Below the pieces are notes generated by a model. That model was not told the DNA's origin. It searched no databases and was given only the letters and a program-made list of their open reading frames with translations. A stretch of 62,342 nucleotides of DNA, counting the filler, from Raja brachyura (taxonomy: Eukaryota): assembly GCA_963514005.1 (NCBI GenBank). It is 4 parts of 4 records of this genome, joined end to end, with 100 filler letters (N's around TTAATTAATTAA, not from the genome) between each part and the next. Parts side by side here need not be neighbours in the genome. Positions count along the whole stretch, not along the records: positions 35,111 to 57,795 come from CAUPSL010000672.1; 3 more parts are not named here. One strand, given 5' to 3'. This document shows positions 1,462 to 48,457 of this stretch, piece after piece. Both the position numbers and the translations under genes were made by a program. Each line of letters starts with the position of its first letter. Positions within the stretch are counted from its first letter, which is position 1.

Positions 1462-1731
1462 CTCCCACCTACACCAGGGCCTACACCTGGAGGAGGCTGG
1501 CACAAGGCTACCTGGTGTGCCGGGCGAGCGGCTTCTTCCCCCGGGACGTCAACGTGAGCTGGGTCAGAGACGGAGAGGTGGTGGAGAGCGGGCAGGAGAC
1601 GGTCGACGTCGTTCCTCAACGCGATGGGACCTTCCAAGTCAGGAGCGTGCGCCCGCTAAACGGCGGTGGCGGGAAGTACGTCTGTCAAGTGGAACACGAG
1701 GCCGTCAAGGGCAAGCTCTTCATACCTCTGG
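1462..1731 (+). CDS. Gene 1 exon: MHC membrane-proximal C1-set Ig domain (W-category beta2-like or class I alpha3-like); upstream exons not in window
   Basis: Acceptor tttgtgcag|, donor G|gtgagg, phase 1/1, 270 bp. Translation APTYTRAYTWRRLAQGYLVCRASGFFPRDVNVSWVRDG...VVPQRDGTFQVRS...YVCQVEHEAVKGKLFIPL has C1-set motifs (LxC, GFFP, W, YxCxVxH) and class I-type PxxDGTFQ rather than class II beta NGDWTFQ. Confidence 0.9.
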
Positions 1732-3590: not shown

Positions 3591-3704
3591 AACGCAACCT
3601 GGTAGTTTCGAACGAAGCTTTGATCATCATTGGAAGTGTGATGGGACTTCTAGGAATCTCCGCAGCGGTGGTGGCCACGGTGATTCATTGCTGGCTCCTC
3701 CATG
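3591..3704 (+). CDS. Gene 1 connecting peptide/transmembrane exon
   Basis: ttctctgcag| ... G|gtaagt, 114 bp, phase 1/1. Encodes ERNLVVSNEALIIIGSVMGLLGISAAVVATVIHCWLLH, a hydrophobic helix with a GxxxGxxG pattern. Confidence 0.85.
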
Positions 3705-11223: not shown

Positions 11224-12350
11224 TTTAAACCAGCCTCTGCAGTTATTTCCTAAACATACTCGTCCAAGGGGGACCCGTTGGGTCTCATTGTCACACGGGA
11301 GGCCTGGTCCTCCAATGCAATATTCTACCACACACCCATAGCCCCCAAACTTCAGGCAGCCCCGACATTCCCTCTGTCTCTATCCCTCGGTTTAAACCAG
11401 CCTCTGCAGTTATTTCCTAAACATACTAGTCCAAGAGGGACCCGTTGGGTCTCATTCTCACACAGACGGCCTGGTCCTCCAATGCAATATTCCACCACAC
11501 ACCCATAGCCCCCAAACTTCAGGCAGCCCCGACATTCCCTCTGTCTCTATCCCTCAGTTTAAACCAGCCTCTGCAGTTATTTCCTAAACATACTAGTCCA
11601 AGAGGGACCCGTTGGGTCTCATTCTCACACAGACGGCCTGGTCCTCCAATGCAATATTCCACCACACACCCATAGCCCCCAAACTTCAGGCAGCCCCGAC
11701 ATTCCCTCTGTCTCTATCCCTCGGTTTAAACCAGCCTCTGCAGTTATTTCCTAAACATACTAGTACAAGAGGGACCCGTTGGGTCTCATTCTCACACGGA
11801 CGGCCTGATTCCACAACGCAATGTTCCACCACACACCCATAGCTCCCAAACTTCAGGCAGTCCCGACATTCCCTCTGTCTCTATCCCTCGGTTTAAACCA
11901 GCCTCTGCTGTTATTTCCTAAACATACTAGTCCAAGGGGGACCCGTCGGGTCTCATTGTCACACGGGAGGCCTGGTCCTCCAATGCAATATTCCACCACA
12001 CACCCATAGCTCCCAAACTTCAGGCAGTCCCGACATTCCCTCTGTCTCTATCCTTCGGTTTAAAGCAGCCTCTGCAGTTATTTCCTAAACATACTAGTCC
12101 AAGGGGGACCCATTGGGTCTCATTCTCACACAGACGGCCTGGTCCTCCAATGCAATATCCCACCACACACCCATAGCTCCCAAACTTCAGGCAGCCCTGA
12201 TATTCCCTCTGTCTCTATCCTTCGGTTTAAACCAGCCTCTGCAGTTATTTCCTAAACATACTAGTCCAAGGGGGACCCATTGGGTCTCATTCTCACACGG
12301 ACGGCCTGGTCCCACAACGCAATGTTCCACCACTCACACATAGCTCCCAA
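11224..12350. repeat. 167-bp tandem repeat, about 6.7 copies
   Basis: Unit tttaaaccagcctctgcagttatttcctaaacatactagtccaag...; repeated ORF starts at 11278, 11445 and 11612 give the period. Confidence 0.9.
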
Positions 12351-25076: not shown

Positions 25077-26729
25077 GTAAGAGTTATTAAAATACTCGGG
25101 CAAACTATTTAAGGTTGTCAGCGGTAGAGTCAATGAGGTCTGTCGTCACACTGTATCAATAGAAAATAGGTGGAGGAGGAGGCCAATCAGCCCTTCGAGC
25201 CAGCACCGCCATTCGATGTGATCATGGCTGATCATCCCCAATCAGTACCCCCGTTTGTGCCTTCTCCCCATATCCCCTGATTTTTAAGAGCCCTATCTAG
25301 CTCTCTCTTGAAAGCATCCAGAGAACCGGCCTCCACCACCCTCTGAGGTAGAGAATTCCACAGACTCGCCACTCTCTGTGAGAAAAAGTGGTTCCTCATC
25401 TCCGTTCTAAATGGCAGACTCCTTATTCTTAAACTGTGTGTGTGTGTGGCCCCTGGTTCTGGACTCCCCCAACATCGGGAACATGTTTCCTGCCTCTAGC
25501 GTGTCCAATCCCGTCAGAATGTTATATTTTTCAACTAGATCCCCTCTCATCCTTCTAAATTCCAGTGTATACAGTTCCAGCCGCTCCATTCTTTCAGCAT
25601 ATGACAGTCCCGCCATCCCTGGTTCTGGACTCCCCCAACATCGGGAACATGTTCCCTGCCTCTAGTGTGTCCAAGCCCTTAACAATCTTATATGTTTCAA
25701 TAAGATGCCCTCTCATCCTTCTAAACTCCAGAGTGTACAAGCCCAGCCGCTCCATTCTCTCAGCGTATGACAGTCCCGCCATCCCGGGAATTAACCTGGT
25801 GAACCTACGCTGCACTCCCTCTTCGAGCCAGCACCGCCATTCAATGTGATCATGGCTGATCATCCCCCATCAGTACCCCCGTTCCTGCCTTCTCCCCATA
25901 TCCCCTGACTCTGCTATTTTTAAGAGCCCTATCTAGTTCTCTCATGAAAGCATCCAGAGAACCGGCCTCCTCAGGCAGAGAATTCCACAGACTCGCCACT
26001 CTCTATGAGAAAAAGTGTTTCCTCGTCTCCGTTCTAAATGGCCGACTCCTTATTCTTAAACTGTGTGTGTGGCCCCTGGTTCTGGACTCCCCCAACATCA
26101 GGAACATGTTTCCTGCCTCTAATGTGTCCAAGCCCTTAACAATCTTATGTTTCAATCCTCTCATCCTTCTAAACCCCAGAGTGTACAAGCCCAGCCGCTC
26201 TATTCTCTCAGCGTATGACAGTCGCGCCATCCCGGGAATTAACCTGGTGAACCTACGCTGCACTCCCTCAATAGCAAGAGTGTCCTTCCTCCAATTAGGG
26301 GACCAAAATTGCACACAATACTCCAGGTGTGGTCTCACCAGGGCCCCGTACAACTGCAGAAGGACCTCTTTGCTCCTATACTCAACTCCACTTGTTATGA
26401 AGGCCAACAGGCCAAACCTGCACGCAATACTCTAGGTGTGATCTCACCAGGGCTCTGTACAACTGCGGAAGGACCTCTTTGCTCCTATACTCAACTCCTC
26501 TTGTTATGAAGATCAACAGGCCAAACCTGCACGCAGTACTCTAGGTGTGGTCTCACCAGGGCTCTGTACAACTGCGGAAGGACCTCTTTGCTCCTATACT
26601 CAACTCCTCTTGTTATGAAGGCCGACATGCCATTCGCTTTCTTCACTGCCTGCCGTACCTGCATGCTCACATTACCAATTTTAAAACTAATTTCCTGGTT
26701 CAAACAATTAGCGTGTGCTTTGTTCACAG

Positions 26730-26920
26730 AACCAGAAGTGCAAGATCGCAACGAAGCTGAACTGGATACAAGCCAGCTTATTGTTTTGATCTGTGGAGCG
26801 ACCATCGGAATTCTTGGCACTGCAACGGGATTCTGCCTGTGTTTCTGGTTGCGTTTCACCAGACAGGACTCTTGGATTCTCCGGGTCAGCCCTTTCATGA
26901 GGGTATCCCATTCATCATAA
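26730..26920 (+). CDS. WA: MHC W-category alpha chain, CP/TM/cytoplasmic exon
   Basis: tttgttcacag|, phase 1. Encodes EPEVQDRNEAELDTSQLIVLICGATIGILGTATGFCLCFWLRF...SHSS*. Class II alpha-like EPE connecting peptide and Cys/Gly-patterned TM. An internal splice donor in the tail cannot be excluded. Confidence 0.85.
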
Positions 26921-29900
26921 GACATGGATCTGCCGTCTTTGTCCCTGGGGGACTGTTTCCGGCATGCTTGGTTCCAGAGCCTGTCCAACCCCTTAAGGAT
27001 CTTTCCAGGCACGGCAGAGGTTCACCTGCACCCCCTCCAACCTCATCCATTACATCCCCTGCTCTAGATGCCAGCAGCTCTACATCGATGAGACCAAGCG
27101 TAGACTTCCAAAGCGTCTTTTTATGCGAATTCGCGCATTTATCGAGTGCTGCGCCCCTCAAAATTCCATGGCACCACCGGAAGCACGTATATATATTATA
27201 TATATAACACACACACACATATATATAGATGTGACATTTATAGATGTGACATTGATGTGTATAATTAAATAACACATGCAGATTTCTCTAGTTTCTTATA
27301 TATTTATAAACACATATATTAATTATATATATATATATATACGCATCATATATATATATATATATATGTGATGCGCATATATGTGTGATATATATATACG
27401 ACTGCAGTAGTTCCTCCCTGCTCTTATAAAATCCTTTTGCTATGACCCCTTGTCCTGGACCTCCCCAACATTGGGAACAATCTTGTTAAAGAAGGAACTG
27501 CAGATGCTGGAGAATCGAGGGTTACACAAAAAGCTGGAGAAACTCAGCGGGTGCAGCAGCATCTAAGGAGCGAAGGAGATAGGCGACGTTTCGGGTCGAG
27601 ACCCTTCTTCAGACTGTTCTTCGTGAACAATCTTCCTGCATCTAGCCTGTCCAACTCCTTAAGAATTTTGTAAGTTTGCAAGTCTAAATTCTAGAGAGTA
27701 TAAACCGAGTCTATGCAGTCTTTGTTCATAAGACAGTCCTGACATCCCAGGAATCAGTCTGCTGAACCTTCTCTGCGCTCCCTCTATGGCAAGAATGTCT
27801 TTCCTCAGATTTGGAGACCAGAACTGTACGGAATACTCCAGGTGTGGTCTCACCAAGACCCTGTACAACTGCAGTGGAACCTCCCTGCTCCTACACTCGA
27901 ATCCTTTCGCTATGACTGCCAACATACCATTGGCTTTCTTCACTGCCTGCTGCACCTGCATGCCTACTTTCAATGACTGGTGTACCATGACACCCAGGTC
28001 TCATTGCATCTCCCCTTTTCCTAATCGGCCACCATTCAGATAATAGTCTACCCTCCTGTTTTTGCCACCAAAGTGGATAACCTCACATTTATCCCCAGAG
28101 CTATAGCTGCCCTTAACTGGCCCTGCTGAATGGAGGGAATTTGAGGGAAATGAGTTACCGTATTTCCCAGCAATGAAGACGCACCCCTCCATTTATTTGA
28201 GTTGCTAAATTTTGGCAGGACAGGATCGAGGGTTTGGCTTAGTGCAGGGGTCCGCAGCCTTTTTTGCTTAGGGGCCAGGACCCTCCGGGACTAGTTGCCC
28301 AGGTACCCAGGTCACCTGCGAGCCCCGAGTCTAGCTGTGGTTCCGCCGTCCGGTCCCGGCGGCCGCTCGCAGCCACCCGAGCTGTGAGCGAGTTTTTTTT
28401 TGTTAGAAGTAAGTACAGTAGTGTGGTACCCAAGTACCTAATACATACACACACATTACCATTCTTGTACAACTTGGTGTTTTTAATTTAATAATAAAAG
28501 AACATGTAACCATATAACAATTACAGCAGGGAAACAGGCCTTCTCGGCCCTTCCAGTCCGTGCCGACCATTTATTTTCCCCTAGTCCCATCTACCTGCAC
28601 TCAGACCATACCCCTCCATTCCCTTCCCATCCATATACCTATCCACTTTACTTTTAAATGTTAAAATCGATCCTGCCTCCACCACTTCTGCTGGAAGATC
28701 ATTCCACACAGCCACCACTCTCTGAGTAAAGAAGTTTCCCTCTCATGTTACCCCTAAACTTCTGTCCCTTAATTCTCATGTCATGCCCTCTTGTTTGAAT
28801 CTTCCCTACCCTCAATGGGAAAAGCTTATCCACGTCTATCCCTTTCATCATTTTAAAGACCTCAATCAAGTCCCCCCCTTAACCTTCTGCGCTCCAAAGA
28901 ATAAAGTCCTAACTTGTTCAACCTTTCTCTGTAACTGACTTGCTGGAACCCAGGCAACATTCCAGTAAATCTCCTCTGTACTCTCTCTAGAACAGTGAAG
29001 GAAAAAGGGAAATAAAGAGTGTCGAAATAGATAGACAAGCGAGTAGACACATAGCGAAAGAGACAGACAGTAGCAACGTTACAATATTTTGTGATTTAAA
29101 AAATCAAGTCTGCAATTTATCCCATCAGATAAAGCATAAAAAGAAGCTTAATTTGACACCTAATTCACTTTCATATCTTCCGTATTAAAAAAGTTATGGC
29201 AATTTTCATACTCGGAAGTTAAGCATCTTGTTCCCTATTGCTTTTCCATTGACTTAACTCAAAAGCTGTGATCTAGGACAGTCAAAAGCCCATAACTTTC
29301 TTAGAAATGAAGAGAACTCAATGAAACTTTCAGTTATTATAGATTGAAGCATTCTGAAACAAATATGAAACAATCTTACTTGGATGACCTGAAATCAAAG
29401 CATGTAATTAGTTAGTTACCCAACTGTAGCTAATTACAAAATTCAATTACTAGATCTAAACATCTATCCATTTCTTAAGAAAAGATAAACATTTTTAAAT
29501 TGCCTAAGTGTCCAAATAACATTCACACAATAATCCACAATATAACATGATTTTTAAGTCTCATTTTCATGAATATATAGGCCACATGGAAGGAATTTAG
29601 TATTTAATTCCCGTAAATTAATGGCCATTTAAATCAACTTGCGAGTGGGTTTTAGTGGAACGCGGTGGATTGGAACGCTGCGGTTTGCGGTGAATTTAAC
29701 CCACAGTCGGCAGGAAAAACACTGCCGGTTCGTATATATTTTTTGTCCCCTTTTCGCAACGTTTTTATGTAAAAATAAACTGTGTACCTTCTTTTATCCC
29801 CTACGTAAAATCCTTCCCGTTGTCGGCGCTCACGGCTTTAGAAGATGATTTTTAAATTACTCTAGCTAATAAATGATCTAGCGTAGTTTAAAAATACCTT

Positions 29901-32900
29901 CGTAAAACAAATGTCGGAGCAATTTCTCTTGAGCAACGAAATCCCCTGACATGGATCGATTTGAACTGTCTGGAGAAAAACGGCATTTTAAACCCGCCCC
30001 CCCTCTGAAAGGCGCCAAAGTCGTGCACACGGGGTTATCCACTTTGGTGGCAAAAATAGGAAATGCAGCGGATCATATTGAGTGGTGGTGCAGGCTCGAA
30101 GGGCCGAATGGCCTACTCCTGCACCTACTCTATGTTTCTATGACTCCACGAGGGAATTGTGCAACTCGTGGAGTCATGGAAACAGAAAATAGGTGCAGGA
30201 GGAGGCCCTTCGGCCCTTTGAGCCAGCACCGCCATTCTTTGTGATCATGGCTGATCGTCCCCTATCAATAACCCGTGCCTGCCTTCTCCCCATATCCCTT
30301 GACTCCACCAGCCCCTAGAGCTCTGTCTAACTCTCTCTTAAATCCATCCAGTGACTTGGCCTCCACTGCCCTCTGTGGCAGGGAATTCCACAAATTCACA
30401 ACTCTCTGGGTGGAAAGGTTTTTTTCTCACCTCAGTCTTAAATGACCTCCCCTTTATTCTATTGCGTTAAAGAAGGGACTGCAGATGCTGGAGAATCGAG
30501 GGTTACACAAAAAGCTGGAGAAACTCAGCGGGTGCAGCAGCATCTAAGGAGCGAAGGAGATAGGCGACGTTTCGGGTCGAGACCCTTCTTCTGAAACGTC
30601 GCCTATCTCCTTCACTCCTTAGATGCTGCTGCACCCGCTGAGTTTCTCCAGCTTTTTGTGTAACTCCCCTTTATTCTAAGACTGTGTGGCCCCTGGTTCT
30701 GGACTCGCCCAACATTGGGAACATTTTTCCTGCATCTAGCTTGTCCAGTCCTTTTATAATTTTATATGTTTCTATAAGATCCCCCCCATCATCCTTCTAA
30801 ACTCCAGTGAATACAAGCCTAGTCTTTTCAATCTTTCCTCGTATGACAGTCCCACCATCCCAGGGATCAATCTGGTGAACCTACGCTGCACTGCCTCAAT
30901 CACAAGGATGTCCTTCCTCAAATTAGGAGACCAAAACTCAACACAACACTCCAGATGTGGTCTCACCAGAGCCCTGTACAACTGCAGAAGAACCTCTCTA
31001 CTCCTGTACTGAAATCCTCTTGTTATGAAGGCCAACATTCCATTAGCTTTCACCTCTCATACTGAGGAAGGGTTTCGACCCGAAACGTTGCCTATCTCTT
31101 TAGATGCTGCTGCACCCGTTGAGTTTCCCCAGCCTTTTGTGTGCCCACATTCCATCAGCTTTCTTCACCGCCTGCTGTACCTGCACGCCAACTTTCAGTG
31201 ACCGGTGCACAAGGACGCCCAGGTCCCGCTGCACCTCCCCCTTACCCAACCGAACCTTTCCTCTGGTATCTTTTCTTGAAAGTCACCCAAGCAGAAGCAG
31301 AAACAATAGCGAGAACGTCCTTCCTCAAATGTTTAAGATGGTGGATGAATCGAAGGTAGGCAAAATGGCTGGAGAAACCCAGCCTCTGTGGAGCGAAGGA
31401 ATTGGCGACGTTTCGGGTCGAAACCCTTCTTCAGATCGAGACCCTTCTTCCGAAAACACTTCTCCCCACCTTTGTTCCAAGTATCTTTATTTTTACTTCT
31501 CGTGAATCAGCGAGCCATTAAAACAACAGTGAATTTAAAACCACTCCTCTCTCGATATCAAAAAATTCCGCTGATGCTCGAAGCAGAAATGCCGGAAGCA
31601 GCAAAATACATTGTCGGAGAGTGTGCGATCGGCTTCATATTAAAAGCACCTGCACTTCCTCTTCTCACAGCTACTACCGATGTGTTAACCATCATGTCAC
31701 CTGCACCATTTACTCTCAAATTTGCAAAGTTCTGTGGCAGTTCCGATAAAAAATATTTGACTTCTTGTTTAAATTTCAAAATATACTTTATTCGAGAAAT
31801 AAATTATATATAATGCATGCTCCTTACAAATCTCCCTCCGACATTCTCGGAGGCTATGCACACTTTCTACAAATCACAATTTTACCCCCCACCCTTGCCA
31901 CACATGTGGCCCACTGGTGTGGAATCCCTTCCATTATAGAAACATAGACGGGAAGGTTGGTACTCCAGACAAACCTAAATCTTCCGGAGGACAAGACTTA
32001 GGATCTGTATGCGGGATATATAGACACCAGACAATAGACAACAGGTGCAGGAGTAGGCCATTCGGCCCTTCGAGCCAGCACCGCCATTCAATGTGATCAT
32101 GGCTGATCATAGAAATTAGGTTCAGGAGTAGGCCATTCAGCCCTTCGAGCCTGCCCCGCCATTCAATGTGATCATGGCTGATCATCCAACTCAGTATCCC
32201 GTACCTGCCTTCTCTCCATACCCCCTGATCCCTTTAGCCACAAGGGCCACATCTAACTCCCTCTTAAATATAGCCAATGAACTGGCCTCAACGACCTTCT
32301 GTGGCAGAGAATTCCACAGATTCTGTTCACTGCTCTTTTATTATTAAATTAAAAATAAGAAGTTGTACAAGAACTGTACTATGTCTGTATGCATCAGGTA
32401 CTTAAATACCACATTACTGTATTTCCAACAAAAATATATTGGTGGATAAAATCATGGGAGGAATTGAAACATATACGATTATCCACTTGTTATAAGGTTA
32501 TCCACTTTGGTAGCAAAAACTACCTTCTGTGGCAGAGAATTCCACAGATTCACCACTCTCTGTGTAAAGAATGTTTTCCTCATCTCGGTCCTAAAGGAAT
32601 TCCCCCTTATCCTTAGACTGTGACCCCTTGTTCTGGACTCCCCCAACATCGGGAACAATCTTCCTGCATCTAGCCTGTCCAACCCCTTAAGAATTAAGAA
32701 GTTTTCATGAAAATGCATACAATTTTGGTCTCCAAATCTGAGAAAGTACATTCTTGCCATAGAGGGGGTACAGAGAAGGTTCACCAGACTGATTCCTGGG
32801 ATGCCAGGACTTCCATATGAAGAAAGACTGGATAGACTCGGCTTGTACTCGCTAGAATTTAGAAGACTGAGGGGGGGTCTAATAGAGACTTACAAAATTC

Positions 32901-33259
32901 TTAAGGGGTTGGACAGGCTAGATGCAGGAAGATTGTTCCCGATGTTGGGGAGGTCCAGGACAAGGGGTCACAGTCTAAGGATAAGGGGGAATTTCTTTGG
33001 GATCGAGGTGAGAAAAACATTTTTCACACAGAGTGGGGAATCTCTGTAATTCTCTGCCACAGAGGGCAGTTGAGGCCAGTTCATTGGCTATATTTAAGAG
33101 GGCGTTAGATGTGGCCCTTGTGGCTAAAGGGATCAGAGGGTATGGAGAGAAGGCAGGTACGGGATACTGAGTTGGATGATCAGCCATGATCATATTGAAT
33201 GGCGGTGCTGGCTCGAAGGGACGAATGGCCTACTCCCACACCTACTTTCTATGTTTCTA

Positions 33260-33930
33260 TGAGAGAGGGAGGGGGGAAAGAGGGGTAGAGAGGGAAAGAT
33301 GGGGGGAGAGAGGGAGAGGGGAAGGGAGAGATGGCGAGAGAGGAGGGAGGGAAAGTGAGAGGCAAAGGGGGAGAGAGATGGAGGGGGAGAGGAGAGGGAG
33401 GGTGATAGAGAGAAAGGGAGGGGGGGGAAGATGGAGGGGAGAAGGGAGGGTGAGAAAGGGGGGGAGAGGAGGGAGAGAACGATGGAAGGAGAGAGCGATA
33501 GAGGGGGAAAGGGGGTGAGAGGGAGGGATGGAAAGTGAGAGGAAAAGGGGGAGAGAGGGATAGATGGGGGGAGAGGGAGGGAGAGGGGGGGAGAGGAGGG
33601 AGAGGGAAAGGTGGTGACAGAGAGGGGAGAGAGGGAGGGGTAGATGGGGAGAGAGGGAGAGAAAGGGAAAGGGGGAGACGGGGTGAGAAAGGGGGAGAGA
33701 GGGAGGGGTAGATGGGAAGAGGGAAAGATGGGGAGAAAGAGGGAAGGAGAGAGAGAGAGAGAGGGAAAGGGGGGGAGACGGGGAGAGAGAGAGAGGGAGA
33801 GGGGTAGAGAGAGAGGTGGAAGGGAGGGAGAGAGAGGAGGAAGGGAGAGAGAGAGAGAGATAGGGAGAGAGGAGGGAGGGAGAGAGAGGGGGGGGTAGAG
33901 GGGTGCAGAGAGAAAGAGGGGGGGAGGGTA
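33260..33930. repeat. Polypurine (GA-rich) low-complexity tract
   Basis: Almost exclusively G/A on the + strand. Similar tracts at about 34685-35010 and 43765-44645. Confidence 0.9.
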
Positions 33931-35010
33931 GAGTCAGTGCCGTCTTGATCACTGTGTGAGATTCAGCAGTGATTTTCCCACGTCGTTGCTCCCTCTAACA
34001 TTGGTGACCAGGGCTGCCGGAGAGGTCAGTACATCGGCCTCGGTGCGGCTAAGGGTTAGCCGCCTTTGTGATCTCCCCCGGGCGGACGGGGATATGATCT
34101 CAACAACAACTGCATCACACCTCCTCTCTGCAAGCCTTTGCACATCTCACTTCCTGACTGGGGGGGGGGGGGGGGGAAACTGCAACTAAAAAAACCACCT
34201 TCCGGCCCCTCTAGCCAGCCGTGCGCAGAGAGGATCGGAGATCGCTCGCTAAATTTAAAACTCAAACGCCGGCGGTTACCCTTGTTGCTCAGTGCTCAGT
34301 GGTTTCTGCAATAAGACCTTTCAATTAATCCCACCGGCTGCAGTTTCCTGTCTCCGAAAATTCCCCGAACTCCCCCTCCCCCCCCCCCCCCCCTCCCCAA
34401 TTTAGCATGTCCATGTCAGATCCTCTGGGATGTGGACTCCCAGGTATTTAAAGCTGCTCATACTATCCACAGTATCTTCAACGGTCTTGTACGTCCTCGG
34501 ATGTTGTGCCTCCTCCGATCTACGCACATTTATACCGTCCTACACCGGACTCGCTGGGGGCGATTTTACAATTTTACTCACGGCCGATCAAACCTACAAA
34601 CCTCCTGCGCTTGCGGGAGGAATCCCGGCGATCCCGGAGACAACGCACGCAGGTCACGGGGAGAAAACGCTCAAACTCCGTGCGGGGGGGAGAGAGAGAG
34701 AGAGAGAGGGGAGGAGGATGGGAGAGAGGGGGAAGGGGGTGAGAAATATGGGGGGGGGAGAGGAAGGGGGAGAGAGGGGAAGATTGGGGGGGAGAGGGAG
34801 AGGGAAAGAGAGATGGGGAGAGGGGGTGAGAAAGGGGGGAGAGAGAGAGAGGGGAAGGGGAGACGGTTAAAGAGGGAGAGAGGAGAGAGGGAAAGGGGGA
34901 GAGGGTGGGAGAGAGAGGGGAAGAGAGGGAAAGATGGAGGGGAGAGGGAGAAGGGAGGTTTAGAAAGAGGGGGGGAGAGGAGAGAGAACGATGGAAGGAG
35001 AGAGAGAGTG

Positions 35011-35110: not shown

Positions 35111-37411
35111 CCCCCACTCTCAAACCTCCATCTGCTCACCCTCCTTCCCCTCTCACCCTCTTTCCCCTCTCCTTCTCACCCTCACTCCCCCTCCCTTCAT
35201 CCCCTCACTCTCCCTCCATCCCTCTCATCTCATCCTCCTTCTCTCCTTCCCTCCTTCCCCACTCATTCTCACCCTCCCTCACCTGTCACCCTCCCTTCAT
35301 TACTTCTGACTATCCATCACTCCCCTCTCCTTCCCCTCTAATTCCCTCCTTCCCCTCTCATTCTCACCCTCCCTCCCTCACCCTCCTTCACCTCTCCTTC
35401 TCCTCTCCTTCTCACTCTCCCTCCATCCCTCTCTCATCCCCCTTCTCTCCTTCCCCTTTCCTTCTGACCCTCCCTCCATTCATCCCTTCTGACCCTACAT
35501 CACTCCCCTCACCCTCTTCCCCCTCTCCTTCTCTCCTTTCCCTCACCCTCCTTCTCCCTTCCCTCTCAGCCTCCCCTCTCACTCTCCCTCCACCCACTCT
35601 CCCTCCATCCCTCTCCTCTCATCCTCCTTCTCTCCTTCCCCTCTCCTTCTCACCCTCCCTCACCTCTCATCCTCCCATCATCCCTTCTGACCCTCCATCA
35701 CTCCCCTCTCCTTCTCTCCTTCCCTCCTTCTCCTCTCCTTCTCACCCTCCCTTCATCCCTTCTGACCCTACATCACTCCCCTCACCCTCTCCCCCCTCTC
35801 CTTCTCACTCTCCCTCCATCCCTCTCCTCGCATCCTCCTTCTCACCCTCCCTCCATTCCTCCTCTCATCCTCCTTCTCTCCCCCTCTCATTCTCACCCTC
35901 ACCCCTCACTTCATCCCTTCTGACCCTCCATCACTCCCCTCTCCTTGTCACCCTCCCTCTATTCCCCCACCCTCCCTCCCCTCATCCTCCCTCCACCCCT
36001 CTCTCATCCTCCTTCTCTCCTTCCCCTCTCCTTCTCACCCTTCATCCCTTCTGACCCTACATCACTTCCCTCACCTTCTCTCCTTCTCCTCTCCTTCTCA
36101 CTCTCCCTCCATCCCTCTCGCATCCTCCTTCTCTCCTTCCCCATTTCTTCTCACCCTCCCTCCCACACCTCTCACCCTCCCTCCCTCACCTCTCACCCTC
36201 CCTTCATCCCTTCTGACCCTACATCACTCCCCTCATCCTCCTTCCCCTCTCCTTCTCTCATTCCCCTCTCCTTCTCCCCCCCTTCCCCCTCCCCTCTTGC
36301 CCTCCATTTATTCCTCACCCTCACTCCCGCCCTCCCTGCCTCCCCACTCACCCTCCCCTCATCCCCTCACCCTTAATCCCTCCCCCCTCCACCCTTTCCC
36401 CTCTCCTTCTCACCCTCCATCCCTCTCCCTCGATCCCCCCACTCTCCCTCCATCCCTCTCCACTCATCCTCCTTCTCTCCTTCCCCTCTCCTTCTCGCCC
36501 TCCATCCCCTTCCTCCACTCACCGTCCATCATCCCTTCCCTCCCACCCTCCCTCCATCCCTCTCCTCTCATCCTCCTTCCCCTCTCCTACTCATCCTCCC
36601 TCTCCCACCCTCCCTCCCTCCTTCTCCTCACCCTCCCTCCATCCCCTCATCCTCCCTCCCCTCTCTTTCTCTCACTCCCTCTTTCTCTCGCTCCCTCCAC
36701 TCTCAACCTCCATCTGCTCTCCCTCCCTCTCCCTCCATCATCCCTCCCCTCTCACCCTCCCTCCCACCCTCTTTCCATCCCCTCTCCTCCCCTCTCCCGT
36801 TTCATCCTCCACCCCCCTCCCTCTCCCCTCTTTCTCTCGCACCCTCCATCCTCTCCCTCCCCTCTCACCCTCCCCTCATCCCCTCAACCTCAATCCCTCC
36901 CCCCTCACCCTCTTTCCCCTCTCTTTCTCACCCTCCCTCCATCTCCCCTCACCCTCCCTCCATCCCTCTCCTCTCATCCTTCCTCTCTCATTCTCACCCT
37001 CCCTCCCTCACCCCTCACCCTCCCTTCATCCCTTCTGACCCTACATCACTCCCCTCACCCTCCGTCCCTCTCCTTCTCTCCTTCCCCTCTCCTTCTCACC
37101 CTCCCTCTCCCTCCCCTCTCGCCCTCCATTTATTCCCTCACCCTCACTCCCCCTCCCTCCCTCCCCTCTCACCCTCCCCTCACCCTCAATCCCTCCCCTC
37201 TCACCCTCCTTCCTCTCACCCTCTTCCCCCTCTCCTCACCCTCCATCCCACTCCCTCCATTCCCCCTCACTCTCCCTCCATCCCTCTCTTCTCATCCTCT
37301 TTCTCGCCTTCCCCTCCCAATCTCACCCTCTGTCCCTCCCCTTCTCACCCTCCATCCCCTTCCTCCACTCACCCTCCATCATACCTTCTCTCCCTCCCTC
37401 CTTCTCCCCCC
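35111..37411. repeat. Polypyrimidine (CT-rich) low-complexity tract
   Basis: 2.3 kb of mostly C/T with a recurring cccttctgaccctacatcactcccctc submotif. Confidence 0.9.
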
Positions 37412-38549
37412 ATGAGAGGGAGTATTAAAAAAGTTATGGCCATTTTCATACTCGGAAATTAGCATCTTGTTCCCCATTGCCTTTCCACTGACGTAACTCA
37501 AAAGCTGTGATCTAGGACAGTCAAAAGCCCATAACTTTCTTAAAAATTAAGAGAACTCAATACAATTTTCAGTTATTATAGATTGAAGCATTTTGAAACA
37601 AATATGAAACAATCTTACTTGGATGACCTGAAATTATAATAACCCATGTAATAATTTCTTTCAGTTCTCTTAATTTTGAAGAAAGTTATTGGCTTTTGAC
37701 TGCCCTCAATCACAGCTTTTGTGTTAAGTCAATGGAAAACAATAGGGAACAAGATGCTAAGTTCCGTGTTTGAAAATGGCCATAACTTTTTTTAATACTG
37801 AAGATATGAAAGTGAATTAGGTGTCAAATTAAACTTCTGTTTATGCTTTATCTGATGGGATAAATTGCAGACTTGATTTTTTAAATCTCAACATTTTGTA
37901 ACATTGCTACTTATCGAGATGGTGCTGTCTGGACAAGACAATGAATGCAGCTATTATGTTAAAGAAGGAACTGCAGATACTGGAGAATCGAGGGTACACA
38001 AAAGGCTGGAGAAACTCAGCGGGTGCAGCAGCATCTAAGGAGCGAAGGAGATAGGCGACGTTTCGGGTCGAGACCCTTCTTCAGATTGGCAAATGCGGCT
38101 ATTAGTCGTGGATTGTAAAAGACGCTACACCATGAGATAACACCAGTTTAAACCTGTTAAAGAAGGAACTGTAGATGCTGGAGAATCGAGGGTACACAAA
38201 AAGCTGGAGAAACTCAGCGGGTGCAGTAGCATCTAAGGAGCAAAGGAGATAGGCGACGTTTCGGGTCGAGACCCGAGTCTGAAGAAGGGTCTCGACCCGA
38301 AACGTCGCCTATCTCCTTCGCTCCTTAGATGCTGCTGCACCCACTGAGTTTCTCCAGCTTTTTGTGTACCCACCAGTTTAAACCTTATGCCATCCAGCTT
38401 TTAATGACAGCACCCACAATTCACCCACAAAATGGTCAATGTTTACAGCGCAAACATTGACCATTTTGGCGGTTTTTAACAGGTAAGAAAGTACGCGTTG
38501 AGCTGCCCAGTGCGTCCCGCTGGATTACCTTAGATGCAAGATTATAGAG

Positions 38550-39581
38550 TAGGTATGTTGCAAAACTTACCTTGAGCAGCGCTGCAGTTCTGCCGCTCCC
38601 CGTGTGCGCGACTTTGGCGCCTTTCAGAGGGGGGCGGGCTTAAAGTGCCGTTTTTCAACAGAGCTGGATAATCGATGAATGTTGGGCGATTTCGTTGCGG
38701 AAGAAAAATCGCTCCGACATTTCATCAATGAAGGTATTTTTAAATTACTCTAAATTATTTATTAACTAGAGTAATTTAAAAATCACCTTCAAAAGCCATG
38801 AGCGCCGACAACCGGAAGGATTTTCCGTAGGGGAGAAAGAAGGTAAATAGTTTATTTTTATATTAAAAGTTGTTTTTTTGGGAGGCTTTAATAATATTTT
38901 TATGTTGCGAAATGGGGTCCCAAAAAAATGTATGAACAAACAGTATTTTTCCCCACGACTTCACCGCTAACCGCAACGTTCTAATCCACCGCATTCCACT
39001 AAAACCCACTCGCTAGTTGATTTAAATGGCCATTAATTTACAGGCATAAAACACTAAATTCCTTCCATTTGGCCCAGAAATTCATGAAAATGAGATTTAA
39101 AAATTATGTTATATTGTGGATTATTGTGTGAATGTTATTTGGACACTTAGGCAATTTAAAAAAAGTTTATCTTTTCTTAAGAAATGGATAGATGTTTAGA
39201 TCAACTCATTGAATTTTGTAATTAGCTACAATTAGATAACTAACTAATTATATGCTTTAATTTCAGGTAATCCAAGTAAGATTGTTTCATATTTGTTTCA
39301 GAATGCTTCAATCTATAATAACTGAAAATTTCATTGAGTTCTCTTAATTTTTAAGAAAGTTATGGGCTTTTAACTTCCAGATCACAGCTTTTGAGTTAAG
39401 TCAATTGAAAGGCAATGGGGAGCAAGATGCTCATTTCCGAGTATGAAAATGGCCATAACTTTCTTAATACTGAAGATATGAAAGTAAATTAGGTGTCAAA
39501 TTAAACTTCTTTTTATGCTTTATCTGATGGGATAAATTGCAGACTTGATTTTTAAAATCTCAAAATTTTGTAACATTGCTA
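38550..39581 (-). mobile_element. About 1.03-kb AT-rich non-autonomous DNA transposon (hAT-like ends)
   Basis: Imperfect TIRs TAGGTATGTTGCAAAACTT / TAGCAATGTTACAAAATTT and 7-bp flanking duplication TATAGAG. Other copies start near 1783, 8207, 19566, 29071, 40730 and 49443. Confidence 0.75.
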
Positions 39582-40122
39582 TATAGAGCTCTATGATCTT
39601 TGATTTTATGTCTAGGGGGTGCTATACATAAAATCAAAGATAATAGAGCCCTATAATCTTTGCATAAATTGTTGGAGTAACTTCAACTTGGCAGGTCAGG
39701 CAGCATTTCTGCAGATTGCCTCCAGAAATGTTGCCTGACCTGCTGAGTTACTCCAGCATTTTGTGTATAAATCAGCAATTATCCTTGCAATTATTGCATG
39801 TGTTGCTTTGCATTATTTTGAATGTTGCGAGCAAAGAAGAATTTAAGCAATTTTTAAAAATAGGCATTGGTATTTTGCAAGCACGCTTGCAGCTTCGACC
39901 GCCCACATTGTTCTCTGGGGAAGGGATGTGTCAGGACGGGGCGGGGATATTTGCATTTGTTTTCTGTCGTGTGTGAGGTGCGGAGGGGAGAGGCGGCGAA
40001 GGGGGGGGGGGCGGCCATCGGCACCGGGCGTCGAGCGAAGGCAGCGAGGGGGAAGAAGGCGGGAAAGACGGTTGGGAACGGCGCTCGTCTCCAACTGCCC
40101 GCCCGTTCAAACCCCGGCGGCG

Positions 40123-40530
40123 GTTGCTAGGGGGAAAAGCCCCCGCTCGGCCAATCAGCGACTACCCGGGGGCTGTTACCAGGTGGAAAAGCCCTCGTTC
40201 GGCCAATCAACGACCCCCTCCCGCGGGGGCTGTTGTCAGGCGACAAGCCCCCGCTCGGCCAATCAGCGACCACCCGGGGGCTGTTGCCGGGTGGAAAAGC
40301 CCACTCTCAGCCAATCAGCGACCACCCGGGGGGCTGTTACTAGGTGAAAAAGCCCCCGCTCGGCCAATCAGCGACCGCCCGGGGGCTGTTGCCAGGTGGA
40401 AAAGCCCACTCTCAGCCAATCAGCGACCACCAGGGGGCTGTTGCCGGGCGGTAAAGCCCCCGCTCGGCCAATCAGCGACCACCCGGGGGCTGTTGCCGGG
40501 TGGAAAAGACCCCGTTCAACCAATCAGCGA
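40123..40530 (+). promoter_or_regulatory. Tandem promoter array, 8 x ~52 bp, with X-box-like, CCAAT/Y-box and kB-like motifs, inside a CpG island upstream of the WB ATG
   Basis: CCAATCA at 40151, 40203, 40259, 40311, 40364, 40416, 40468 and 40520. Units also carry GTTRCYRGG-like and most carry GGAAAAGCCC-like motifs. The array ends about 25 bp before ATG 40555. Confidence 0.75.
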
Positions 40531-40554
40531 CCCGGTTGCGGTCTTCCCTCCAAA

Positions 40555-40657
40555 ATGAGGGGCAATGGACGATGGCGATGGCCGCAGGGGAATGGCGGCG
40601 GCGGCGTCCTCCTCCTCCTCCTCCTCATCATCTTCATGCTCGACGCCGCGGCTCTGG
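40555..40657 (+). CDS. WB: MHC W-category beta chain, leader exon
   Basis: aaaATG ... G|gtgagg, phase 1. Encodes MRGNGRWRWPQGNGGGGVLLLLLLIIFMLDAAAL, a signal peptide with a poly-Leu core; in a CpG island. Confidence 0.75.
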
Positions 40658-40729
40658 GTGAGGAGGCTTGGCGGGCGAGGGAGGGAAGATGCGGGACGGC
40701 TGAGGGTGGAGGGAGAGGAGGGTTAAGTC

Positions 40730-41763
40730 TAGCAATGTTACAACATGTAGAGATTTTTAAAAAATCAAGTCTGCAATTTATCCCATCAGATAAAGCATAA
40801 AAAGAAGTTTAATTTGACACCAAATTTACTTTCATATCTTCAGTATTGAGAAAGTTATGGCCATTTTCATACTCGGAAATTAGCATCTTGTTCCCCATTG
40901 CCTTTCAATTGACTTAACTCAAAAGCTGTGATCTAGAACAGTTAAAAGCCCATAACTTTCTTAAAAATTAAGAGAACAATGAAATTTTCAGTTATTATTG
41001 ATTGAAGCATTCTGAAACAAATATTAAACAATCTTACTTGGATTACCTGAAATTAAAGCATATAATTAGTTAGTTATCTAATTGTAGCTAATTACAAAAT
41101 TCAATGAGTAGATCTAAACATCTATCCATTTCTTAAGAAAAGATAAACTTTTTTTAAATTGCCTAAGTGTCCAAATAACATTCACACAATAATCCACAAT
41201 ATAACACAATTTTTAAATCTCATTTTCATGAATTTCTGGGCCAAATGGAAGGAATTTAGTGTTTGATTCCTGTAAATTAATGGCCATTTAAATCAACTAG
41301 CGAGTGGGTTTTAGTGGAATGCGGTGGATTGGAGCGTTGCGGTTAGCGGTGAAGTCGGGGGGAAAAATATTGTGTGTTCATACATTTTTTGGGAACCCAT
41401 TTCGCAACATGAAAATATTATTAAAGCCTCCCGAAAAACCAACTTTTAATATAAAAATAAACTATTTACCTTTTCTTCTCCCCTACGCAAAATCCTTCCG
41501 GTTGTCCGTGCTCACGGCTTTTGAAGGTGATTTTTAAATTACTCTAGTTAATAAATAACTTAGAGTAATTTAAAAATACCTTCATTGATGAAATGTCGGA
41601 GCGATTTGTCTTCCGCAACCAAATCGCCCGACATTCATCGATTGGTCCTGCCTGTTGAAAAACGGCACTTTAAGCCCGCCCCCCTCTGAAAGGCGCCAAA
41701 ATCGCGGACACGGGGAGCGGCAGAAGTGCAGCGCCGCTAAAGGTAAGTTTTGCAACATACCTA
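40730..41763 (+). mobile_element. Full-length copy of the same DNA element, inverted relative to 38550-39581, in WB intron 1
   Basis: tagcaatgttacaac ... aagttttgcaacataccta, followed by further partial copies to about 42600. Confidence 0.75.
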
Positions 41764-44700
41764 ATTTATCCCATCAGATAAAAAGAAGTTTAATTTGACA
41801 CCAAATTCACTTTGATATCTTCAGTATTAAAAAAGTTATAGCCCATTTCATACTCGGAAATTAGCATCTTGTTCCCTATTGCCTTTCAATTGACTTAACT
41901 CAAAAGCTGTGATCTGGAACAGCTAAAAGCCCATAACTTTTTTAAAAATTAAGAGAACTCAATGAAATTTTCAGTTATTATAGATTTAAGCATTCTGAAA
42001 CAAATATGACACAATCTTACTTGGATGACCTGAAATTAAAGCATGTAATTAGTTAGTTGCCCCGTTGTAGCTAATTACAAAATTCAATTACTAGATCTAA
42101 ACATCTATCCATTTCTTAAGAAAAGATTAACATTTTTTAATAGCCCAAGTGTCCAAATAACATGCACACAAGAATTCACAATATAACATGATTTTTAAAT
42201 CTCATTGTCATGAATTTATAGGCCAAATGGTAGGAATGTTACAAAATTTTGAGATTTAAAAAATCAAGTCTGCAATTTATCACATCATATAAAGCATAAA
42301 ATGAAGTTTAATTTTACATCTAATTCACTTTCATATCTTCAGTATTAAAAAAGTTATGGCCATTTTCATACTCGGATATTAGCATCTTGTTCCCCATTGC
42401 TTTTCCATTGACTGAACACAAAAGCTGTGATTGAGGACAGCCAAAAGCCCAAAACTTCCTTAAAAATTAAGAGAACTTGAAGACATTTTCAGTTATTATA
42501 GATTGAAGCATTCTGAAACAAATATGAAACAATCTTACTTGGATGACCTGAAATTAAAGCATATAATTAGTTAGTTATCTAATTGTAGCTAATTACAAAA
42601 TTTGGTCTCCAAATCTGAGGAAAGACATTCTTGCCATAGAGGGAGTACAGAGAAGGTTCACCAGACTGATTCCTGGGATGGCAGGACTTTCATATGAAGA
42701 AAGACTGGATAGACTCGGCTTGTATTCGCTAGAATTTAGAAGATTGAGGGGGGATCTTATGGAAACTTACAAAATTCTTAAGGGGTTGGACAGGCTAGAT
42801 GCAGGAAGATTGTTCCCGATGTTGGGGAAGTCCAGAACAAGGGGTCACAGTTCAAAGATAAGGGGGAAATGTTTTAGGACCGAGATGAGAAAAACATTTT
42901 ACACACAGAGAGTGGTGAGTCTGTGGAATTCTCTGCCACAGAAGGTAGTTGAGGCCAGTTCATAGGCTATAGGGGATTTGCATGAAAGGTCACTGGGTCA
43001 TGGGGCTTGACGCACGGAGCCGCCCAATCCATCTGGAGGACATCCGTCACTTCCGGTATATGTTATTAATGCAAGAAATTCGTACTTTCCTACCTGTTAA
43101 AAAAACGCCAAAATGGTGGATTTTTGCGCTGTAAGAAATCGTGGAAGTCGGGGTAAGCGTGAGAGACGTACCCAACTGCAGAATTCCAAAAGTGAAGCGA
43201 AATGAAGGTACTATATACCGTCATTTCTCCTCACTTTTGGAATATCGAAGTAGGCTAAATGTCTCTCACGCTTATCCCGATTTGCATAATTATTTACAGT
43301 GCAAAAATTGACCATTTTGGCGGGTTTTAACGGGCCCGCTACGCTGCAAGTGCTTACCTGCAGTTCATGGCGTGTAATCCACTTGGGGTAGCGTAGCAAC
43401 AGCACGGGTCATGGGTCGTGACCCGATTGCCGTGAAACCTCCCAATATTTAAGAGGGAGTTAGATGTGGCCCTTGTGGCTGGAGGGATCAGGGGGTATGG
43501 AGAGAAGGCAGGTACGGGATACTGAGTTGGATGATCAGCCATGATCATATTGAATGGCGGTGCAGGCTCGATTGATTGTTTTATTTTAGCTATCATCCGA
43601 AGCTGGAAGAAGCTCGCTTTTACCACGGCATTGACTTGTTTGTCAAATTTCAGTGCTGAGTCAAATATCATGCCAAGATTTTTGAAGTGAGGTTTGAGTA
43701 GTAGGGTAAGGCTTCCAAGGCTGCCTACTATCATTTTGATTGAGTCTGAGGGTCCAAGAAGGATGACCTCAGAGGGCGGAGGGGATAAGGGTTGAGGGAG
43801 ATGAGGGATGAGGAGGGTGGAGGGAGAGGAGGGTGGAGGGGGAAGAGGGATGAGGAAGAGGAGGGTTGAGAGGGTGGAGGTTTGAGGGAGATGAGGGTGA
43901 GGAAGGGGAGGGAGAAGAGGGTGGAGGGAAAGGCGGGGTGAGTGTGGTGGAGGGAGAGGAGGGTTGAGAGGATGGTGGGTGAGGAGGGGGGAGAGAGGAG
44001 GGATGAGAAAGAGGAGGGCTGAAGGGATGGAGGGAGAGGAGGGTTGAGGGAGAGGACAGAGGGTTGAGTGGGTGGAGGGAGAGGAGGGTTGAGAGGATGG
44101 TGGGTGAGGAGGGGGGAGGGAGAGGAGGGATGAGAAAGAGGAGGGCTGAAGGGATGGAGGAAGAGGGTGGAGGGAGAGGAGGGTTGAGGGAGAGGACAGA
44201 GGGTTAAGGGTGGAGGGGGAGGGAAATGAGGGGGGAGGGAGAGGAGGGGGAGGGAGATGAGGGGGGATGGAGGGGGAGGGAGAGGGTTAAGGGTGGAGGG
44301 GGAGGGAAATGAGGGGGGAGGGAGAGGAGGGGGAGGGAGATGAGGGGGGATGGAGGGGGGAGGGAGAGGAGGGTTGGGGTTGAGGGAGAGGACGATGATG
44401 ATGGAGGGTTGAGTGGATAGAGGGAAAGGAGGGATGAGAAAGAGGAGGGTTGAGGGGGTGGAGGGGAAGAGGGTGGAGGGAGAGAGGATTGTGGAGCGAG
44501 AAGAGGTTTGAGGTAGAGGAGGGTTGAGAGTGGGTGGAGGGTTGAGAGGGAAGAAGTGTATGGGGTGGAGGGTGAAGAGGAGGAGGGTGAGGGGGTAGGG
44601 ATGAAGAGGGTGGGAGTGGAGGTTTGAGAGGGTGTGAGGTTGAAAAGAATGGGGCGAAGGGGGTAGGAACATACAAGGAATTTGCCTTGGTGCTCCACTC

Positions 44701-48199: not shown

Positions 48200-48457
48200 G
48201 GATGCACGTGGGCCAATTGAGCTTCTCTTGCGTTGGCGAAGATTTTTCCCTGACGATCCTGCGGTTTGCGTTCGACGGCGAAGAGTTCATCCGCTTCGAA
48301 TACTCCTCGAACAAGTTTGTGGCCAAACACCCCCTGGCGGAGCCATACGCCGATGAGCTGAACAACAATGAGAGAGTTATCAGAAACGTTGCCCGCTACA
48401 TTCGTCGCGTGCCGTTGATCTCGCACATAATTAAAGAAGGCATCCGAGCTGAGACTG
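48200..48457 (+). CDS. WB: MHC W-category beta chain, beta1 (groove) domain exon
   Basis: ttttccgctcaccag| ... G|gtaagg, 258 bp. Encodes GMHVGQLSFSCVGEDFSLTILRFAFDGEEFIRFEYSSNKFVAKHPLAEPYADELNNNERVIRNVARYIRRVPLISHIIKEGIRAET, with class I alpha2-like HxxQxxxxC and AxDG motifs. Confidence 0.85.

What the first reader, a model, noticed from the sequence alone, without database searches (positions are those of the whole stretch)
40123..40530. WB promoter built from eight tandem X-box/Y-box/kB-like modules
Seen: a 52-bp unit repeated 8 times and ending about 25 bp before the ATG. Most units read, on the - strand, GGGCTTTTCC (kB-like), CCYRGYAACAG (X1-like), about 14 nt, then CTGATTGG. The first unit contains CCCCTAGCAAC, and one contains CCACCAGGGGGC (40427-40438, CTCF core). 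Established: MHC class I/II/b2m promoters use a single S-X-Y module (RFX at CCTAGCAAC, NF-Y at CTGATTGG) for CIITA/NLRC5, and class I adds kB sites. Inference: a multimerised, inverted X-Y module with non-canonical spacing and a period of about five helical turns; it may be a copy-number-variable expression tuner or a bidirectional promoter.
Basis: partly seen in the sequence, partly recalled or inferred. Interest (0 to 1): 0.7.

Follow-up and report, generated by a model that had tools for sequence, protein, structure and literature searches.

The report
Eightfold repeated MHC-type promoter in skate
Just in front of an ancient immune gene (MHC W-category beta chain) of a skate lies a 52-base stretch repeated eight times, each copy carrying look-alikes of two of the protein-binding sites that human MHC genes carry only once, which gives a first, still untested clue to how this ancient gene class is switched on.

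Summary
The array is real: 8 copies of a 52-bp unit at 40113-40532, with no other copy in the window, inside a CpG island and ending 22-27 nt before the ATG of a W-category MHC beta (WB) gene of a skate. Homologous proteins confirm that leader exon. Every unit holds an RFX X1-like 9-mer and an NF-Y CCAAT box; 7 of 8 of each match sites printed for human CIITA-bound XY boxes letter for letter. Both motifs together occur in 29 of 200,000 shuffles of the unit, and differences between units mostly spare them (1 of 22 alleles breaks one; 4-7 expected). It is not a canonical S-X-Y module. It is inverted relative to the gene, has no X2/CRE and no S box, and its Y-to-X offset is 24 bp against 31-34. 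The kB claim is weak (4 of 8 units, no consensus match), and the CTCF core occurs in one unit only. Best reading: an RFX/NF-Y promoter module multiplied by tandem duplication. CIITA/NLRC5 use, copy-number variation, bidirectionality and conservation in other species are all untested. I found no description of W-gene promoters in the papers searched.

The parts
40113..40532 (.). Tandem array, 8 x 52 bp (one 5-bp insertion after unit 2, one 1-bp deletion in unit 3, one 1-bp insertion after unit 4)
   Evidence: TRF; alignment; no other copy in window
40123..40131 (-). X1-like RFX site of unit 1 (CCTAGCAAC on -); the others start on + at 40175, 40232, 40283, 40336, 40388, 40440, 40492
   Evidence: 7 of 8 nine-mers seen verbatim in the X1 position of human CIITA-bound XY boxes
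40149..40158 (-). Y box / NF-Y site of unit 1 (RRCCAATCAG on +); CCAAT of the others at 40203, 40259, 40311, 40364, 40416, 40468, 40520
   Evidence: 7 of 8 ten-mers identical to Y boxes of human MHC-II XY boxes
40133..40142 (-).
   Evidence: broken in 4 of 8 units
40427..40438 (+). CTCF-core-like 12-mer, unit 6 only, made by one C-to-A change
   Evidence: the CTCF consensus used is recalled
39880..40729 (.). CpG island holding upstream GC boxes, the array, exon 1 and the start of intron 1 (GC 0.66, CpG o/e 0.82; window 0.48 and 0.51)
39939..39956 (+). GC box (39939) and octamer ATTTGCAT (39949) upstream of the array
   Evidence: the octamer occurs 4 times in the window, so it may be chance
40555..40657 (+). 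WB exon 1 (signal peptide, phase-1 donor GTGAG)
   Evidence: matches the N-termini of 4 of 4 homologues; only + strand leader-like exon found in the window
48200..48457 (+). WB beta-1 exon (DS1-like)
51507..51791 (+). WB beta-2 exon with P57 and G61
55027..55131 (+). WB connecting-peptide/transmembrane exon
38544..39581 (-). Dispersed ~1-kb AT-rich element with short terminal inverted repeats and a CTCTATA duplication; left boundary of the promoter island, not part of the array
40730..41762 (+). Second copy of the same element, inverted, in WB intron 1 (95% identical to the first)
22052..26920 (+). WA (DS10-like) alpha-1, alpha-2 and TM exons, the likely partner chain; exon 1 not found; lies on a separate gap-bounded contig (20399-35010)

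Best explanation
The array is the proximal promoter of the skate WB gene. One ancestral pair of an RFX site and an NF-Y site, related to the MHC X-Y module but lacking X2 and S and shortened by about one helical turn, was multiplied to eight by local tandem duplication, with later patchy exchange between units. NF-Y and RFX bind along it every ~5 turns on roughly one face of the helix, keep the CpG island open, and let transcription start, without a nearby TATA box, near the 3' end of or inside the array. It works as a redundant RFX/NF-Y cluster rather than as one precisely built enhanceosome; CIITA or NLRC5 may be recruited (I put this at about one in three), less well per unit. Shown: the array, its position, the gene's identity, the motif matches, the missing S and X2, the offsets. 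Inferred: binding, start site, mode of origin, any co-activator.
For: Position 22-27 nt before a confirmed ATG in a CpG island. Motif quality: 7 of 8 X nine-mers and 7 of 8 Y ten-mers occur verbatim in human CIITA-bound XY boxes, among them HLA-DRA, HLA-DMB and CD74 (parts 1-2 of 8 of that table, compared by eye). Both motifs in one unit: 29 of 200,000 shuffles. X and Y have the same relative polarity as in MHC promoters. Differences between units spare the motifs: 1 of 22 derived alleles breaks one, 4.1-6.6 expected, P 0.002-0.046 over 8 mutation models; strict columns variable 1 of 11 against 17 of 41, Fisher P 0.044. An inverted S-Y module kept over 30% of HLA-DRA activity in reporters, and S or X2 mutations cost only about 40% and 30% (PMC1802633, section read). 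MHC-II promoters have no TATA and set their start by nucleosome eviction (PMC2677874, passages). CIITA and NLRC5 orthologues are reported in whale shark (PMC8455134, one passage). Tandem duplication of 60-240-bp pieces is common in this window.
Against: The Y-to-X offset is 24 bp at 5 of 7 junctions, 25 and 29 at the others. This equals XY-box lengths of 39-44 against 46-49 at MHC promoters; CIITA-regulated genes had 46-50, one 63 (PMC4381081), and NLRC5 binding is also spacing-critical (PMC4374748). No CRE/X2 and no S-like motif. The conservation test is post hoc: the motif rules were fixed after seeing the array, G41 of the Y flank was not counted, alleles may not be independent, and CpG decay alone gives the variation at X positions 6-7. 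The phase fit rests on two numbers (24 and 52), and only 15 of 28 Y-X distances are within 0.2 turn because the insertion after unit 2 shifts the phase. No binding, TSS or orthologous promoter data. In a salmon cell line the enhanceosome seemed not to drive MHC induction (PMC7573153, passages).
Confidence: 0.58

Rival explanations
1. A general CCAAT/GC-box CpG-island promoter. NF-Y does the work; the X-like site is bound by RFX1-3 or is incidental, and the element has no history or role as an MHC X-Y module.
For: RFX5 and NF-Y co-occur widely outside the MHC, at arrays of CCAAT boxes (PMC4889920, passages). CCAAT plus a good X1 site at short offsets is seen at non-MHC human loci such as MKNK2, BTG2, MAP3K14 and B4GALT3. 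No X2, no S, wrong offset. GC boxes upstream.
Against: Double-CCAAT spacings reported for NF-Y are 19, 24-28, 35-37 and 43 bp within the 75 bp examined, not 52. The X site is kept in 7 of 8 units. An X-Y pair of MHC polarity in front of an MHC gene is a specific coincidence.
Confidence: 0.2
2. A mostly neutral minisatellite: one working X/Y pair next to the start site, the other seven units being by-products of slippage in a genome that duplicates short pieces often.
For: 117 TRF rows in 62 kb, with many tandem copies of retroposon fragments. The conservation signal falls to P 0.046 under strong CpG weighting. The insertion after unit 2 breaks the helical phase.
Against: CCAATCA is invariant in 8 of 8 units and GTT..GG in 8 of 8, while units differ by 14% on average. 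CpGs are kept (o/e 0.75 in the array).
Confidence: 0.12
3. A captured mobile-element enhancer, like the NF-Y-binding tandem repeats in the U3 of LTR12/ERV-9, now used as the WB promoter.
For: LTR12 U3 has 5-17 repeats of about 41 nt with CCAAT boxes, in four related subtypes (PMC11853044, passages), a close parallel in build. The island is flanked by transposon copies.
Against: No second copy of the unit in 62 kb (best outside score 28 against 72-92 for the units). I noted no LTR ends, TATA-to-poly(A) layout or target duplication around the array, but did not search for them by program. The left flanking element has its own target duplication and is an independent insertion. Translated-array searches found no credible relative, but these protein sets are poor for eukaryotic non-coding DNA.
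Confidence: 0.1

Closest known systems
MHC class II W/S-X1-X2-Y module (HLA-DRA type; RFX5/RFXAP/RFXANK, CREB, NF-Y, CIITA)
   Same: X1-like and Y sequences equal to human ones; same relative polarity; next to the start of an MHC gene; no TATA box near the ATG (nearest TATAAA at 39766).
   Different: Eight copies instead of one; inverted relative to the gene; no X2, no S (the next unit's Y box sits in the S slot); Y-to-X offset 24 instead of 31-33.
MHC class I / B2M SXY module (NLRC5) with enhancer A (kB) and ISRE
   Same: X1 and Y present; a kB-like decamer in 4 units.
   Different: No S box, which sets NLRC5 specificity (section heading and passages); offset 24 instead of 34; no consensus kB and no ISRE match.
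Orientation-independent S-Y enhancers (RAB4B, CD74, intergenic MHC-II sites)
   Same: Precedent for an inverted module that still works through RFX and CIITA.
   Different: Those are single and keep canonical spacing and X2.
LTR12/ERV-9 U3 enhancer repeats
   Same: Tandem GC-rich units, each with an NF-Y CCAAT box plus a partner site, in related subtypes, upstream of a start site.
   Different: Those are ~41 nt, with GATA/MZF1 partners, dispersed in thousands of copies; here 52 nt, an RFX-like partner, one copy in the window, no LTR anatomy seen.
W-category MHC genes (Okamura et al. 2021, PMC8713811)
   Same: The gene itself is a WB (DS1-like) next to a WA (DS10-like) in a multi-gene cluster.
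   Different: Pairs are described as head-to-head in sharks; here WA and WB are on the same strand, across a scaffold gap. No promoter is described there.

Membership tests
MHC S-X-Y module | X1 box (RFX site) | tested here: met
   8 of 8 fit GTTRYYRGG; 7 of 8 verbatim in human XY boxes
MHC S-X-Y module | Y box (CCAAT, NF-Y) | tested here: met
   RRCCAATSR 8 of 8; CTGATTGG 7 of 8
MHC S-X-Y module | X upstream of an inverted CCAAT on one strand | tested here: met
   met on the - strand across the 7 unit junctions
MHC S-X-Y module | X2 box (CRE-like) next to X1 | tested here: not met
   no TGACG, CGTCA or TCATC in the array; one TGACA, inside the altered X of unit 3
MHC S-X-Y module | S/W box about 16 bp from X | tested here: not met
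   no match to three short S motifs (partly recalled) in 39582-40729; the slot is taken by the neighbouring Y box
MHC S-X-Y module | Fixed X-Y spacing (XY length 46-49) | tested here: not met
   equivalent length 39 (5 of 7), 40, 44; about one turn short
MHC S-X-Y module | Orientation towards the gene's start site | tested here: not met
   CCAAT then GTTGC on the WB sense strand; inverted
MHC S-X-Y module | RFX/NF-Y binding and CIITA or NLRC5 dependence | not testable with these tools
   needs EMSA, ChIP or reporters
NF-kB site (enhancer A type) | GGGRNNYYCC, conserved | tested here: not met
   0 matches in the island; GGGCTTTTCC in 4 of 8 units; consensus recalled
W-category beta chain (the gene) | Class II-type leader/beta-1/beta-2/TM exon layout | tested here: met
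   four exons, all introns phase 1
W-category beta chain (the gene) | beta-2 P57 and G61 (no W61); beta-1 Q6, A32, G35, D37 | tested here: met
   ILPNFDGTF gives P57 and G61; Q6, A32, G35 present, 37 is E as in the published little skate WB DS1-like row; numbering read by eye
W-category gene pair | WA partner adjacent, head-to-head | tested here: inconclusive
   WA with Y8, L55, F57, W61 is adjacent but on the same strand, on a gap-bounded contig, and its exon 1 is missing
VNTR / minisatellite | Copy number differs between individuals | not testable with these tools
   one sequence only
LTR U3 enhancer repeat | Dispersed copies with LTR anatomy | tested here: inconclusive
   none in 62 kb; the rest of the genome was not available

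The most novel reading that the evidence does not exclude
W-category genes are run by an RFX/NF-Y X-Y element, so this control is as old as the split of W, class I and class II. In skates the element has been multiplied into a phase-locked lattice (units 3-8) that recruits CIITA or NLRC5 without S or X2. Its canonical X-to-Y polarity points away from WB, towards where a head-to-head WA partner would start. It would then be one shared two-way promoter that couples the alpha and beta chains, the WA exons being on a wrongly oriented contig here, and unit number would set the level.
Probability: 0.15. Interest if true: 0.78.

Novelty: new variant of a known kind. Interest (0 to 1): 0.5.

Why it matters
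W-category molecules are proposed as the intermediate between MHC class II and class I, and I found nothing on their regulation in the papers searched. An X-Y-like element at a WB promoter makes a direct test possible: does W answer to CIITA (class II-like), to NLRC5 (class I-like), or to neither? A natural eightfold, inverted, shortened module would also test how strict the enhanceosome geometry really is. If it proves a plain NF-Y promoter or a skate-only minisatellite, it is a curiosity.

Tried and rejected
kB module: rejected as a conserved part. CTCF core: one unit only, treated as incidental; CTCF does act on human MHC-II (PMC2292219, search listing only). Structured RNA: the array folds no better than shuffles (z -1.65; 8 of 100 shuffles as good); Rfam gave 12 sub-threshold hits in 38400-41900, none in the array. 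Composite transposon made by the two inverted flanks: rejected, since the element is dispersed (about ten copies or fragments) and the left copy has its own target duplication. WA exon 1 to the left of the array on the - strand: looked for by alignment to homologous leaders and by two scans of the whole window, and found nowhere. Contig ends gave no clue to orientation. Orthologous arrays through chance ORFs: array-plus-leader translation, 0 hits among 42 candidates; array translation against 1.84 billion proteins, 1 weak hit (E 1.4e-4, 26%, 1136 aa) taken as low-complexity noise and not examined. The SI Appendix of PMC8713811 was too large to be read; it holds the shark gene maps and expression data and may bear on orientation and promoters. 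Structure prediction was not used: the finding is non-coding.

Full report
1. The observation. The array is there as described. TRF gives 40113-40532, period 52, 8.0 copies, score 548. Each unit reads on the + strand GTTRYYRGG, 18-19 nt, then CCAATCA. On the - strand CTGATTGG is exact in 7 of 8 units and CCYRGYAACAG in 6 of 8; unit 1 has CCCCTAGCAAC and unit 6 has CCACCAGGGGGC at 40427. One statement is too strong: GGGCTTTTCC is in 4 of 8 units, and nothing in 39582-40729 fits the recalled kB consensus GGGRNNYYCC. The array has no other match in the window: BLAST of 37300-43700 finds only self-matches for it, and the consensus scores 72-92 on its own units and at most 28 elsewhere. Units differ by 4-19%, mean 14%. 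Units 4 and 6 differ at only 2 positions and units 3 and 7 at 4, which suggests stepwise duplication with later exchange.

2. The gene. An ATG at 40555 opens a 103-nt leader exon with a phase-1 donor. It is followed by beta-1 (48200-48457), beta-2 (51507-51791) and TM (55027-55131) exons, all in phase. The beta-1 exon finds 4 proteins among 60 candidates, two from Amblyraja radiata (84%), one from Rhinoraja longicauda (70%) and one unnamed; all four begin with a leader of the same kind. A scan of both strands for ATG-to-donor hydrophobic exons returned 2 candidates, this being the only one on +. Beta-2 has P57 and G61, the W-category/class I marks defined in PMC8713811 (parts 1-3 of 6 of the text read), and beta-1 matches the published little skate WB DS1-like row. 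Upstream lies a WA gene that matches the little skate DS10-like rows and carries Y8, L55, F57 and W61. So the window is from a skate W-category cluster; such clusters are multicopy and lie outside the MHC in elasmobranchs (PMC10751288, passages and part 96 of its supplement). The array sits in a CpG island (39880-40729; GC 0.66, CpG o/e 0.82 against 0.51 for the window) and ends 22-27 nt before the ATG. There is no ATG between 39926 and 40555, and the nearest TATAAA is at 39766. Several other CpG-rich stretches exist in the window, so the island alone proves little.

3. Are the motifs more than chance? The eight copies are not independent, so I tested one unit. Dinucleotide shuffles of the consensus held both GTTRCYRGG and RRCCAATSR in 29 of 200,000 cases, co-oriented in 12; random 52-mers in 17 of 1,000,000. 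Of 14 other complex tandem arrays that I picked from the 117 TRF rows, none holds both. Outside the array there is one strict pair within 100 bp, with a poor X. Against real sites: in parts 1-2 of 8 of the table of CIITA-bound XY boxes (supplement of PMC4381081; compared by eye), 7 of 8 X nine-mers occur verbatim in the X1 position (unit 1 as HLA-DRA, unit 5 as HLA-DMB, units 2 and 6 as CD74 enhancers, units 4, 7, 8 as HAUS5 and PSMD3). Also 7 of 8 Y ten-mers equal Y boxes of MHC-II XY boxes. Differences between units spare the sites: 1 of 22 derived alleles breaks a motif, against 4.1-6.6 expected, P 0.002-0.046 over 8 mutation models. This test is post hoc, leaves out one change in the Y flank, and becomes marginal when CpG decay is weighted strongly; I count it as suggestive. 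The kB-like decamer has 4 substitutions and 1 deletion in 10 columns.

4. How it differs from an S-X-Y module. The canonical module has S, X1, X2 and Y in fixed order, orientation and spacing (PMC7866136, passages). Here X and Y have the canonical relative polarity only across unit junctions and on the - strand, so the module is inverted with respect to WB. The offset from CCAAT to the next X is 24, 29, 24, 25, 24, 24, 24. In the table's terms that is a length of 39-44, against 46-48 for class II and 49 for class I promoters, so about 9 bp or 0.86 turn short. CIITA-regulated genes had 46-50 bp, one 63, and NLRC5 binding is spacing-critical too (PMC4374748, section read). There is no X2/CRE and no S-like motif; the S slot, about 16 bp from X, is filled by the neighbouring unit's Y box. 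Because 52 bp is close to five turns, Y-X distances among units 3-8 stay within 0.24 turn of the canonical phase, but the 5-bp insertion after unit 2 puts units 1-2 half a turn out; 15 of 28 distances are within 0.2 turn. This rests on two numbers only and is weak evidence. It therefore fails membership of the S-X-Y family. It may still work like one: the RAB4B module kept over 30% of HLA-DRA activity when inverted, and S and X2 mutations cost only about 40% and 30%, while the X mutation abolished activity (PMC1802633, section read).

5. Mechanism. Most likely (0.58) one RFX/NF-Y pair was multiplied by local tandem duplication, which is common in this window, and now forms a redundant cluster. 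NF-Y keeps promoter regions free of nucleosomes and helps set the start site (PMC6624317, passages), and MHC-II genes position their start by nucleosome eviction rather than a core promoter (PMC2677874, passages). With the last CCAAT only 35 bp from the ATG, I infer that start sites lie at the 3' end of or inside the array. Sharks have CIITA and NLRC5 (PMC8455134, one passage); I did not establish RFX5, RFXAP or RFXANK for skates. I put co-activator use at about one in three. Rivals: a general NF-Y promoter (0.2), since RFX5 and NF-Y meet widely outside the MHC (PMC4889920, passages) and short CCAAT-to-X offsets occur at MKNK2, BTG2 and other loci; a mostly neutral minisatellite with one working unit (0.12); a captured LTR-type enhancer like the LTR12 repeats (0.1; PMC11853044, passages).

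6. Bidirectional use. Shark WA/WB pairs are reported head-to-head, and the array's canonical polarity points left. In this window WA is on the same strand as WB, but all its exons lie on one contig (20399-35010) between two 100-nt scaffold gaps, and its exon 1 was found nowhere. No leader-like frame lies on the - strand between 39582 and 40125. A same-strand pair is listed in lungfish. The idea is open, not supported.

7. Novelty. Three papers in the library hold 'W-category', 'MHC' and 'shark' and two hold the W-type terms. The word 'promoter' occurs 0 times in the main text of the four I opened; the fifth, a bioRxiv preprint on TLR genes, I saw only as a listing. A search for tandem-repeat RFX/NF-Y MHC promoters listed 7 papers, none on this subject by title and start of abstract. 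The library lacks most subscription journals, and the SI Appendix of PMC8713811 could not be read. I file it as a new variant of a known kind: known sites, in an arrangement I did not find described, at a gene class whose promoters I did not find described. Interest 0.5: real and testable and tied to the origin of the MHC classes, but one sequence, no function shown, and three defining features plus the orientation fail.

Noticed in passing
window 61151-60690 and 59112-58635, - strand: Two V segments of TCR alpha/delta type (label from recall), each with a leader exon and a recombination signal with a 23-bp spacer, beside the W-category cluster but beyond scaffold gaps.
   Followed up: no
window 38544-39581 and 40730-41762; fragments at 1783, 2183, 8207, 9066, 19566, 29071, 37421, 41763, 42231, 49443, 49892: A ~1-kb AT-rich element with imperfect 16-bp terminal inverted repeats starting TAG and a CTCTATA target duplication, probably a non-autonomous hAT-type transposon (label inferred). 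Two copies, 95% identical, flank the WB promoter and exon 1 in inverted orientation, so recombination between them could flip that island.
   Followed up: partly
window 20399-35010: The WA gene lacks an identifiable exon 1 and lies on the same strand as WB, unlike the head-to-head pairs reported for sharks; the contig may be wrongly oriented or the exon may be in a gap.
   Followed up: partly
window 1460-3700: The 3' half (Ig-C1 exon with P57/G61 and a TM exon) of a second, divergent WB-like gene, about 40% identical to the first in beta-2.
   Followed up: no
window 11224-12350 and 18290-19227: Other tandem arrays with highly similar units: 167 bp x 6.7 (94% matches) next to a CpG-rich stretch, and 33 bp x 28; neither holds the X or Y motifs.
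   Followed up: partly
window 39949-39956: Octamer ATTTGCAT 167 bp upstream of the array; HLA-DRA uses Oct-2A (PMC2192141, search listing only). Four copies in the window, so possibly chance.
   Followed up: no
window 39582-39770: Two short palindromic AT-rich segments (39582-39655, 39663-39765) left of the island; they give only sub-threshold miRNA-hairpin hits.
   Followed up: partly
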